Shown: piece after piece, positions 62,865-63,815 of the stretch
How the letters are laid out: every line of letters begins with the position of its first letter
How positions within the stretch are numbered: position 1 is the first letter of the stretch
Source of the DNA: Promethearchaeota archaeon
Lineage (GTDB): Archaea > Asgardarchaeota > Lokiarchaeia > Sigyniarchaeales > SOKP01
Direction: 5' to 3'
DNA: 64,000 bases
NCBI GenBank assembly: GCA_016839555.1
Contig: JAEOUA010000010.1
Coordinates: 384,001 to 448,000, forward strand
The notes under the pieces: model-generated
The model's database searches: none
What the model was told of the DNA's origin: nothing
Seen by the model: the letters and a program-made list of their open reading frames with translations, nothing else
Position numbers and translations under genes: made by a program

Positions 62865-62925
62865 ATTAAAGAAAAAGACTAATTAAATATTAATAAGATT
62901 TATAATATTAAAAATTTCAATTTAT

Positions 62926-63726
62926 TCATTTAAATCCTTGTAAAAACGAATCAACATTCTTACCCAGCACATCATGGTTATATCCGCCTTCCATTAGAGC
63001 AAATCTCCGTCCCTTACATAATTTTTCTGAATATTTCTTCATCAATTCTCCTAAATGAGTGTAGTCCTCCGGATATAATAAACCACCCCAATCATCTATT
63101 CCCTGATCGAATCCCGCTGATGCGGCGAAAATATCAATATCTTTAAGATTATTCATATAAGTTTCTACTTCTTCAATATATTGTTGATTAGTAGAGGCAT
63201 CAGGATTCAATATCTCAACTTTAAACCTATCTTTTCGATTTGCAAGAATGTTAATATTTCCATTTCAAGAGATTATATGAAAGATATAATCTTCCCCTGT
63301 GTGCAAATCGAAATCCAATATGAACGCAGATTTGATCTTATTTTCAGAAAATAGTCTTAAGAGACTGATACTCATATTGTTAAAGAAGCAAAACCCCCAA
63401 CAAGAATTGGCAGAGGCATGGTGTCCTGGAGGTCTTATTAAAGCAAATGTTGGATTTCCTTCATATGCCTCTTCAGCAGCCAAGATGGCACCTCCAGCAG
63501 CTAAAGAAGCCATTTCAAATAAGAGATCTCTTCTTTTTATATAATTATAATGACTTTCTGTATGCGCTCTGAGAATATTTTCTTTTGAAGCGGGTTCTGG
63601 AGTAATTATTTCATATTCGGGGTTTTTAGAGAGTACATTCATTATGCTTTGAATCCTTCCGCTTGATGCGGCAGGGTCCATTGCATAGTCAGAAGTATAA
63701 AATTTTTCATGAAAAACAATTTTCAT
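62926..63726 (-). CDS. Histone deacetylase family protein, two exons (63726-63294 and 63263-62926), 256 aa if spliced
   Basis: Exon 1 has RPPGHHA, GFCFFNN and LDFDLHTG; exon 2 has SAGFD and MEGGY; removing 30 nt restores DFDLHTGDGN. Confidence 0.85.
63264..63293 (-). other. Candidate 30-nt bulge-helix-bulge mRNA intron
   Basis: AAGATTATATCTTTCATATAATCTCTTGAA; central helix CAGG/CTTG, bulges GG^A and AA^A, 9-bp inner stem; contains an in-frame TGA. Confidence 0.75.
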
Positions 63727-63815
63727 CTATAGTCACTAATTTCTTTTATATATGGGTTCTAAAAATATTTTAGGAATTTTCTAATTATTTTTATGGTTAA
63801 TTATAATTTTAAATT

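What the first reader, a model, noticed from the sequence alone, without database searches (positions are those of the whole stretch)
63240..63320. Candidate bulge-helix-bulge (tRNA-endonuclease-type) intron inside a protein-coding HDAC gene of an Asgard archaeon
Seen in sequence: the minus strand reads GAT TTG CAC ACA GGG G|AAGATTATATCTTTCATATAATCTCTTGAA|AT GGA AAT ATT. The 30-nt insert (63293-63264) splits the Asp codon of the conserved HDAC D-x-H-x-G-D-G motif and carries an in-frame TGA, which is why the ORF track shows two pieces. The pre-mRNA folds into a textbook BHB. The outer helix is CA/TG with an imperfect ATTT/AAAT extension. The 4-bp central helix is CAGG/CTTG (C-G, A-U, G.U, G-C). 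The 3-nt bulges GGA and AAA lie on opposite strands. The inner stem is a perfect 9-bp AGATTATAT/ATATAATCT with a CTTTC loop. Established knowledge: archaeal splicing endonuclease EndA cuts after the second nt of each bulge. Applying that rule gives GG^A and AA^A, which joins ACA GGG GAT GGA AAT (T-G-D-G-N) and yields an intact 256-aa enzyme. To my knowledge the main well-characterised archaeal mRNA intron of this type is in crenarchaeal cbf5. Inference: this lineage splices a protein-coding mRNA with EndA/RtcB, analogous to the non-spliceosomal HAC1/XBP1 splicing in eukaryotes. Unspliced mRNA would give an inactive truncated deacetylase, so splicing could act as an on/off switch.
Basis: partly seen in the sequence, partly recalled or inferred. 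Interest (0 to 1): 0.95.

Follow-up and report, generated by a model that had tools for sequence, protein, structure and literature searches.

The report
tRNA-type mini-intron in Asgard deacetylase gene
A 30-base hairpin that breaks the active-site codons of a deacetylase gene in a Loki-type Asgard archaeon has the RNA shape cut by the tRNA-splicing enzyme, so its messenger RNA is very probably spliced, which published work shows for only one archaeal coding sequence (cbf5).

Summary
On the minus strand, a 30-nt insert (63264-63293) splits the Asp codon of D-F-D-L-H-T-G-D-G in a PF00850 (HDAC-family) gene and carries an in-frame TGA.

Read from structure alone, the insert has:
- a 9-bp hairpin;
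- a 4-bp helix, exon CAGG with intron CUUG;
- two 3-nt bulges, GGA and AAA;
- a 2-bp exon-exon helix.

Cutting after the second base of each bulge rebuilds GAT and gives an intact 256-aa ORF.

Comparative evidence carries the case.
- I found 12 distinct insert alleles of 28-33 nt, in six genera plus metagenomes. All sit at exactly this nucleotide.
- All keep the geometry while the stem sequences differ. One central pair covaries with the synonymous third base of the Thr codon.
- Every one restores G-D-G, although most lengths are not multiples of three.
- Host genes are otherwise intact and under purifying selection (dN/dS 0.03-0.16). Five genomes have no insert-free copy.
- Only a dead duplicate has lost the motif.

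The insert is identical in contigs from an independent study, so it is not an assembly artefact. The genome encodes two EndA paralogues and RtcB.

No RNA data exist for this gene, so splicing itself is inferred. The proposed on/off switch is speculation. This scan has noted the same class of insert on other Asgard DNA before.

The parts
63294..63726 (-). Exon 1 of the HDAC-family gene (ATG at 63726; ends with the G of the split Asp codon)
   Evidence: ORF list and translation. Pfam PF00850, E 1e-33. Orthologues align from residue 1.
63264..63293 (-). 30-nt BHB-type intron (63263-63292 is equivalent); in-frame TGA at 63265-63267
   Evidence: Sequence. Absent from about 110 orthologues, which have only GAT/GAC here. 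Single copy in the genome. Identical in independent contigs.
62926..63263 (-). Exon 2 (begins with AT of the Asp codon; stop TGA at 62926-62928)
63300..63301 (-). Outer (exon-exon) helix, 5' strand CA; pairs with UG at 63261-63262
   Evidence: Both pairs are kept in 10 of 10 distinct alleles. In most relatives a longer interrupted exon-exon helix follows.
63296..63299 (-). Central 4-bp helix, exon strand CAGG (Thr codon bases 2-3 plus Gly codon bases 1-2)
   Evidence: Pairs C-G, A-U, G.U and G-C with 63266-63269. Pair 2 covaries across alleles.
63293..63295 (-). 5' bulge GGA; predicted cut GG^A
   Evidence: Left unpaired in both the free and the constrained folds.
63284..63292 (-). Inner helix h', 5' arm AGAUUAUAU
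   Evidence: Perfect 9 bp with 63270-63278.
63279..63283 (-). Hairpin loop CUUUC
   Evidence: Most alleles show a similar 5-nt loop (CUUUC, AUUUC, AGUUC, AGAUC, AUAUC, AUCUC and the like).
63270..63278 (-). Inner helix h', 3' arm AUAUAAUCU
63266..63269 (-). Central helix, intron strand CUUG
63263..63265 (-). 3' bulge AAA; predicted cut AA^A
   Evidence: Sequence. Left unpaired only in the BHB-constrained fold, which lies 1.3 kcal/mol above the free fold.
63261..63262 (-). Outer helix, 3' strand UG

Best explanation

Shown:
- The transcript can form the sequence: exon-exon helix, 4-bp helix (exon CAGG with intron CUUG), 3-nt bulge on each strand, 9-bp intron hairpin.
- Cutting after base 2 of each bulge rebuilds the Asp codon and a 256-aa ORF.
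- The same architecture recurs at the same nucleotide in 12 distinct alleles, with covariation.
- The host genes are under purifying selection.
- The genome encodes two EndA paralogues and RtcB.

Inferred:
- The splicing endonuclease, probably an alpha-beta heteromer of the two paralogues, cuts both bulges.
- RtcB joins the exons and circularises the 30-mer.
- Only spliced mRNA yields active enzyme. Unspliced mRNA ends at the TGA, three codons after the metal-binding His.
For: Anatomy and statistics:
- Searches give the structure and show that no shuffle of the insert matches both the helix and the hairpin.

Same-site inserts:
- Inserts of 28-33 nt sit at this nucleotide in G009, G036, G067, G116 (two copies) and G153, in 8 metagenome contigs, and in 2 database genes read through as 266-aa proteins.
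- All of them restore G-D-G and a 255-257-aa ORF by the same cut rule, although lengths of 28, 29, 31 and 32 nt would otherwise shift the frame.

Conservation of structure (the first three figures are for the ten alleles):
- In-register pairing is 106/120 cells (88%), against 23-50% when the 3' partner is slid.
- Central pair 2 takes the forms A-U, U-A, C-G and U.G, following the synonymous third base of the Thr codon.
- The 18 chance matches to the same exon pattern in unrelated DNA include none with 4/4 central pairs.

Selection:
- dN/dS is 0.03-0.16, including 0.08 for G153/G116a, which share the identical intron.
- G000, G009, G067, G116 and G153 have no insert-free copy.
- The one decayed duplicate (G150b, 9 stops) has lost both the helix and the hairpin.

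Not an artefact:
- Contigs from another study (X3) and another sample (X4) bridge the insert with 0 differences.

Machinery and context:
- Two EndA paralogues are present, each with N-terminal and catalytic domains, plus one RtcB.
- 17 of 28 ARAGORN tRNA genes carry introns of 8-43 nt.
- The moxR Walker A motif in the same genome is split by a 31-nt insert of the same layout.

Precedent:
- The cbf5 intron follows the same cut rule and also lies between letters 1 and 2 of a catalytic Asp codon (PMC2738675).
Against: - No transcript, circular intron or peptide has been seen for this gene.
- The free-energy minimum does not leave the 3' bulge open, and for G009 the BHB fold is 6.4 kcal/mol above the minimum.
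- The exon-exon helix in G000 is only 2 bp before a mismatch.
- Five of the 12 alleles have 3 of 4 central pairs.
- Two alleles have a stop-free 30-nt insert, so they could in principle be translated as a 10-residue loop insertion.
- My two crude genome-wide ORF-joining scans gave no enrichment over a mirror-image decoy. They therefore add no support, though they also do not bear on this site.
Confidence: 0.85

Rival explanations
1. The insert is a lesion, a small palindromic insertion, and the gene is a pseudogene or is newly inactivated. The resemblance to a BHB is incidental.
For: The gene is broken by an in-frame TGA. Only about 5% of genomes with an orthologue carry an insert. One insert-bearing copy (G150b) really is decayed.
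Against: - Seven interrupted genome copies have no other defect.
- dN/dS is 0.03-0.16, even between two copies that both carry the insert.
- Five genomes have no other copy.
- Twelve alleles keep the BHB geometry, with covariation.
- The dead copy is the only one that lost it.
- The element is single-copy in the genome, unlike a MITE-type repeat.
Confidence: 0.05
2. The insert is bypassed or removed by a route other than EndA/RtcB. Candidates are ribosome hopping over a hairpin gap (as in phage T4 gene 60), another RNA-processing nuclease, or excision from the DNA.
For: A hairpin with a stop codon just after a Gly codon, and a Gly codon just after the gap, loosely resembles a take-off and landing arrangement.
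Against: - Hopping from Gly codon to Gly codon would delete the conserved D-G, whereas the BHB rule restores it exactly in all 12 alleles.
- Hopping or a generic nuclease does not predict the conserved 4-bp exon-intron helix or its covariation.
- No DNA contig lacks the insert.
- The insert is far too small for a self-splicing group I or II intron.
Confidence: 0.05
3. The insert is an assembly or sequencing artefact.
For: None beyond the fact that the genome is a metagenome-assembled genome in 12 contigs.
Against: Contigs from a different study (X3, record 14) and a different sample (X4, record 17) span it with no differences. A metagenome contig (L141) from a close relative carries the identical 30 nt.
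Confidence: 0.01

Closest known systems
BHB intron in the cbf5 (pseudouridine synthase) pre-mRNA of Crenarchaeota (Watanabe 2002; Yokobori 2009, PMC2738675)
   Same: - It is a protein-coding gene interrupted by a short intron whose exon-intron borders form a BHB.
- Cuts fall between bulge residues 2 and 3.
- The intron lies between letters 1 and 2 of an active-site Asp codon.
- Its distribution among relatives is patchy, described as gain and loss.
- The endonuclease is hetero-oligomeric.
   Different: - The host gene is an HDAC-family deacetylase and the phylum is Asgard/Promethearchaeota.
- The introns are very small, 28-33 nt.
- At least four sequence families of intron occupy the same nucleotide.
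- The intron is rare, found in about 5% of orthologue-bearing genomes.
- Splicing has not yet been shown by cDNA here.
Archaeal tRNA and rRNA BHB introns cut by EndA and joined by RtcB
   Same: They share the same motif and presumably the same enzymes. This genome's tRNA introns are 8-43 nt, the same size range.
   Different: Here the exon half of the motif is made of codons, so synonymous positions carry the structural covariation. The product is an mRNA.
46-nt BHB intron in the 5' UTR of Haloferax volcanii HVO_1309 (Schwarz 2020, PMC7714728)
   Same: It is an mRNA substrate of the archaeal splicing endonuclease.
   Different: It lies in the untranslated leader, so the reading frame does not depend on it.
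HAC1/XBP1 unconventional mRNA splicing in eukaryotes (Ire1 plus a tRNA ligase; RtcB in metazoa)
   Same: Both are non-spliceosomal: endonuclease cuts at paired stem-loop sites in an mRNA are followed by tRNA-ligase joining, and the reading frame changes on splicing (established knowledge).
   Different: The endonuclease (Ire1) and motif differ, and that system is stress-regulated. No regulation is shown here.

Membership tests
BHB (EndA-type) intron | [quoted passage not shown] | tested here: met
   In G000: CAGG/CUUG with bulges GGA and AAA. Across 12 alleles, 7 have 4/4 central pairs and 5 have 3/4.
BHB (EndA-type) intron | Flanking helices: intron hairpin h' and exon-exon helix h (strict hBHBh' form) | tested here: inconclusive
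   h' is a perfect 9 bp. In G000, h is 2 bp followed by a mismatch, though it is longer but interrupted in relatives. This fits a relaxed motif of the kind cut by broad-specificity EndA.
BHB (EndA-type) intron | Cuts between bulge residues 2 and 3 give the correct exon junction | tested here: met
   The rule restores the GAT/GAC (Asp) codon and a 255-257-aa ORF in all 12 alleles, including the 28-, 29-, 31- and 32-nt ones. The rule itself is as stated in PMC2738675.
BHB (EndA-type) intron | Structure conserved with compensatory change | tested here: met
   For the ten alleles: 88% of cells pair in register, against 23-50% when slid. There are four pair types at central pair 2, and the hairpin arms differ in sequence between allele families.
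BHB (EndA-type) intron | Host encodes the splicing endonuclease and the RtcB ligase | tested here: met
   Two PF01974+PF02778 proteins of 198 and 208 aa, and one PF01139 protein.
BHB (EndA-type) intron | Spliced RNA, circular intron, or in vitro cleavage observed | not testable with these tools
   No RNA run holds this stretch. The protein collection has no insert-free near-identical product.
Histone deacetylase / acetylpolyamine amidohydrolase superfamily (PF00850) | Profile match and the metal-site motif D-x-H followed by G-(D/N/Q)-G | tested here: met
   PF00850, E 1e-33 to 1e-35. DFDLHTGDG aligns with DWDVHHG(N/Q)G of HDAC6. The substrate is unknown. At 256 aa the protein is shorter than the solved relatives (307-380 aa).
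Pseudogene | Further lesions and relaxed selection | tested here: not met
   There is no other stop or frameshift in the 7 interrupted genome copies, and dN/dS is 0.03-0.16.
Miniature repeat / transposable element | Multiple copies in the genome | tested here: not met
   The 30-mer has one copy with up to 5 mismatches allowed, and the 23-nt core has no relative within 2 mismatches, in 3.74 Mb.

The most novel reading that the evidence does not exclude
These mini-introns are a mobile or turning-over population in Asgard coding genes. The same nucleotide of this gene is occupied by at least four sequence families of intron. On the gene tree the carriers need 6-7 changes of state.

Introns are far better conserved than their hosts:
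- G153 and G116a have the identical 33 nt plus an 86-nt identical exon tract, in genes that differ at 8.8% of sites.
- G000 and G009 match at 29 of 31 intron positions, in genes that are 69% identical.

This would mean site-specific gain or lateral spread of BHB introns into mRNAs. A possible route is reverse splicing or recombination targeted to exon sequences that can form half a BHB (C-N-G-G-R-G here, C-U-G-G-A-A in moxR). It would be taking place in the closest archaeal relatives of eukaryotes.
Probability: 0.35. Interest if true: 0.9.

Novelty: new member of a known kind. Interest (0 to 1): 0.75.

Why it matters
In the papers I could search, only cbf5 is reported as an archaeal coding sequence spliced by the tRNA machinery; the only other mRNA case is a 5' UTR intron in Haloferax.

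This case puts such an intron in an unrelated enzyme gene of an Asgard archaeon. Comparative evidence (covariation, purifying selection, sole gene copies) indicates that the cell depends on removing it.

Together with the moxR inserts in the same genome, it suggests that endonuclease-mediated mRNA splicing is a regular part of gene expression in this lineage. That bears on three things:
- how interrupted genes were tolerated before the spliceosome existed;
- how Asgard genomes are annotated, since this gene is called as two fragments and two relatives are deposited as 266-aa read-through proteins;
- how BHB introns are gained and lost.

Tried and rejected
- RNA evidence: no RNA holder is listed for this stretch. 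The only runs I could lay were DNA contigs.
- Spliced product in the 5.8-billion-protein collection: none. The best insert-free hit is 85% identical, which is a different species.
- Genome-wide test: the first script timed out. A loose BHB-plus-ORF-joining scan gave 406 hits against 423 for a mirror-image decoy. A stricter hairpin version gave 36 against 31. Junctions between adjacent genes swamp the signal, so the scans say nothing about how many such introns the genome has. A homology-aware census is needed.
- Repeat element: the insert is single-copy.
- Curated RNA families and terminator-like sites across 62900-63800: nothing relevant.
- Exon co-conversion around the intron between G000 and G009: identity is 84% within +-12 codons against 69% overall, and higher than G000 against its own sister over the same stretch (76%). 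The stretch is only about 75 nt and lies in a conserved motif, so this is suggestive only.
- Alternative register for the stop-free alleles (L162): a perfect UGGU/ACCA helix one base over would remove 29 nt and wreck the frame, so I rejected it as the productive fold.
- Class-wide pattern search found no carriers outside family f1. The pattern is narrow (it misses G067), so absence elsewhere is not shown.

Full report
**What is in the sequence.**
- The minus strand of 62926-63726 encodes a PF00850 (histone-deacetylase family) protein.
- The reading frame is interrupted after ...D-F-D-L-H-T-G by 30 nt (63293..63264). These are in frame and contain a TGA, and the frame then continues ...G-N-I-N-I-L.
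- Removing the 30 nt joins G to AT, giving GAT (Asp), and yields a 256-aa ORF.
- An intact orthologue aligns to the catalytic domains of HDAC6 and bacterial HDAH. Its DFDLHTGDG lies over their DWDVHHG(N/Q)G motif, so the break is three codons after the metal-binding His.

**The RNA shape.**
- Read 5' to 3', the transcript offers: CA, then CAGG, then the bulge GGA, then AGAUUAUAU-CUUUC-AUAUAAUCU, then CUUG, then the bulge AAA, then UG.
- The 9-bp hairpin fixes where the intron strand CUUG begins. CUUG pairs with the CAGG that lies exactly three bases upstream of the hairpin. The next three bases are followed by UG, which pairs with the CA just before CAGG.
- The two bulges, and therefore the cut sites, follow from structure alone. 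They give exactly the codon that every intact orthologue has.
- RNAfold's free minimum keeps everything except the 3' bulge. The BHB-constrained fold costs 1.3 kcal/mol more.
- No shuffle of the insert reproduces both the helix and the hairpin, out of 5000.
- The exon-exon helix is weak in this genome, so this is a good but not strict hBHBh' motif.

**Artefact and repeat element excluded.**
- Contigs from an independent study (X3) and from another sample (X4) span the insert without a single difference. No contig lacks it.
- The element occurs once in the 3.74-Mb, 29.6% GC genome.
- No Rfam family or terminator-like site overlaps it.

**Relatives.**
- Named close relatives are Promethearchaeota/Promethearchaeia MAGs.
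- In the order, 120 of 154 genomes have the orthologue. About 110 have an uninterrupted gene of about 768 nt with GAT or GAC at the junction.
- Six genomes from six genera carry an insert at exactly this nucleotide:

| Genome | Insert length (nt) |
|---|---|
| G000 | 30 |
| G009 | 31 |
| G036, contig 413 | 29 |
| G067 | 28 |
| G116, two copies | 33 and 32 |
| G153 | 33 |

- An exon-anchored pattern search of metagenomes added eight more carriers. It also returned 18 chance matches in unrelated DNA, which serve as a control.
- Two database proteins of 266 aa are read-throughs of a stop-free 30-nt insert at the same place.
- In total there are 12 distinct alleles in at least four sequence families.

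**Conservation of the motif.**
- After excision by the same rule, every interrupted gene gives an intact 255-257-aa ORF with G-D-G. This holds although 28, 29, 31 and 32 nt are not multiples of three.
- For the ten alleles tabulated, 106 of 120 cells pair in register (outer 2, central 4 and first 6 inner pairs). Sliding the 3' partner by 1-3 positions gives 23-50%.
- Central pair 2 is A-U, U-A, C-G or U.G. It tracks the synonymous third base of the Thr codon.
- The central helix has 4/4 pairs in 7 alleles and 3/4 in 5. None of the 18 chance matches has 4/4.
- The hairpin arms have different sequences in different families but still pair.
- The second copy in G150 (9 stops) is the only insert-bearing copy that is clearly a pseudogene. 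It is also the only one that has lost both the central helix and the hairpin.

**Selection.**
- dN/dS is 0.03-0.16 for all informative pairs.
- It is 0.08 (dS 0.40) for G153 against G116a, which carry the identical intron. It is 0.08-0.09 for G036b against its insert-free relatives, the same as between two insert-free genes.
- G000, G009, G067, G116 and G153 have no insert-free copy. In G000 the other three PF00850 genes are distant paralogues.
- A gene kept under this constraint while carrying a frame-breaking insert must have the insert removed before translation.

**Machinery and context.**
- The genome encodes two splicing-endonuclease paralogues, each with N-terminal and catalytic domains (198 and 208 aa). 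This is the arrangement described for alpha-beta heteromeric enzymes with broad substrate range. It also encodes one RtcB.
- A 2026 preprint reports this two-paralogue pattern in most Asgard genomes.
- ARAGORN finds only 28 tRNA genes, and 17 of them have introns of 8-43 nt.
- Following a lead from earlier notes of this scan, I read the moxR gene on the same contig.
  - Its Walker A motif GEPG|TGKT is split by a 31-nt insert with exon CUGG, bulge AA^A, a hairpin, intron CCAG and bulge AA^C.
  - A second 31-nt insert with a perfect 9-bp hairpin follows Walker B.
- The notes also list rnhB, dnaG and porB in this genome. They report the same class in at least 31 other genomes, some with RNA-derived contigs. 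I did not check those, and they are not used as evidence.

**History of the intron.**
- On the gene tree the carriers are scattered. Seven changes of state are needed, and well-supported branches force at least six.
- G000 is sister to insert-free G005. G009, with almost the same intron, groups elsewhere.
- Introns are much better conserved than their hosts:
  - G000 and G009 match at 29 of 31 positions, in genes that are 69% identical.
  - G153 and G116a have the identical 33 nt inside a 119-nt identical tract, in genes that differ at 8.8% of sites.
- Either an old intron has been precisely lost many times, or introns are gained or spread laterally at this one site. I cannot decide between these.

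**Comparison with what is known.**
- The closest case is the cbf5 intron of Crenarchaeota. It has the same cut rule, the same position within an active-site Asp codon, a patchy distribution and a hetero-oligomeric endonuclease.
- A 2020 study states that cbf5 was the only BHB intron reported in an archaeal mRNA besides the 5' UTR intron it describes.
- My literature searches found no report of such introns in Asgard protein genes.
- I therefore file this as a new member of a known kind. The cbf5 authors proposed something similar for their intron.

**What is missing.** There is no RNA-level observation for this gene, and my genome-wide scans were uninformative.

Noticed in passing
G000:C10:139518-139869 (same contig, about 244 kb before the window): A moxR-type AAA+ ATPase gene is broken into pieces. 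A 31-nt BHB-type insert splits Walker A (GEPG|TGKT), another 31-nt insert with a perfect 9-bp hairpin follows Walker B, and there is probably a third insert between them.
   Followed up: partly
L162:1501-2301 and L163:1501-2301 (proteins P0009, P0026): Public gene calls of 266 aa read straight through a stop-free 30-nt insert at the same codon (HTG-DFISSRNET[I/E]N-GN). These are likely mis-annotated introns. Their central helix has 3 of 4 pairs, and a competing perfect helix one base out of register would break the frame.
   Followed up: partly
L095, L099-L104, L108, L111-L128: Proteins 60-68% identical to this Asgard deacetylase occur in Spirochaetota, Leptospirales and Desulfobacterota MAGs. 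All are uninterrupted 768-nt genes. This suggests transfer between Asgard archaea and bacteria, or mis-binned contigs.
   Followed up: no
L035 about 1729-1760 (G027:C266): The orthologue has a 19-nt deletion between direct repeats (TTCATTTTG) that removes the D-x-H metal-site codons and shifts the frame. This is a true lesion or an assembly slip, not an intron.
   Followed up: partly
L048 2830-3100 (G150:C65); L049 1758-1892 (G072:C34); L045 1500-1604 (G116:C15): Extra partial or decayed copies of the gene lie a few kb from the main copy. The G150 one keeps a degenerate remnant of the type-C insert. The others begin near the intron site.
   Followed up: partly
G036:C413 versus G036:C10 (L036, L029): One MAG holds both an insert-bearing and an insert-free copy that differ at dS 0.67. 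These are probably two related populations binned together. G116:C155 likewise looks like a contig from a G153-like organism.
   Followed up: partly
Whole genome G000: ARAGORN calls only 28 tRNA genes in a 92%-complete genome, and 61% of them have introns. Many tRNA genes are probably missed because of multiple or non-canonical introns.
   Followed up: no
L047 1690 region (G105:C191): The orthologue shows a frame change near residue 100, close to a contig end. The cause was not examined.
   Followed up: no
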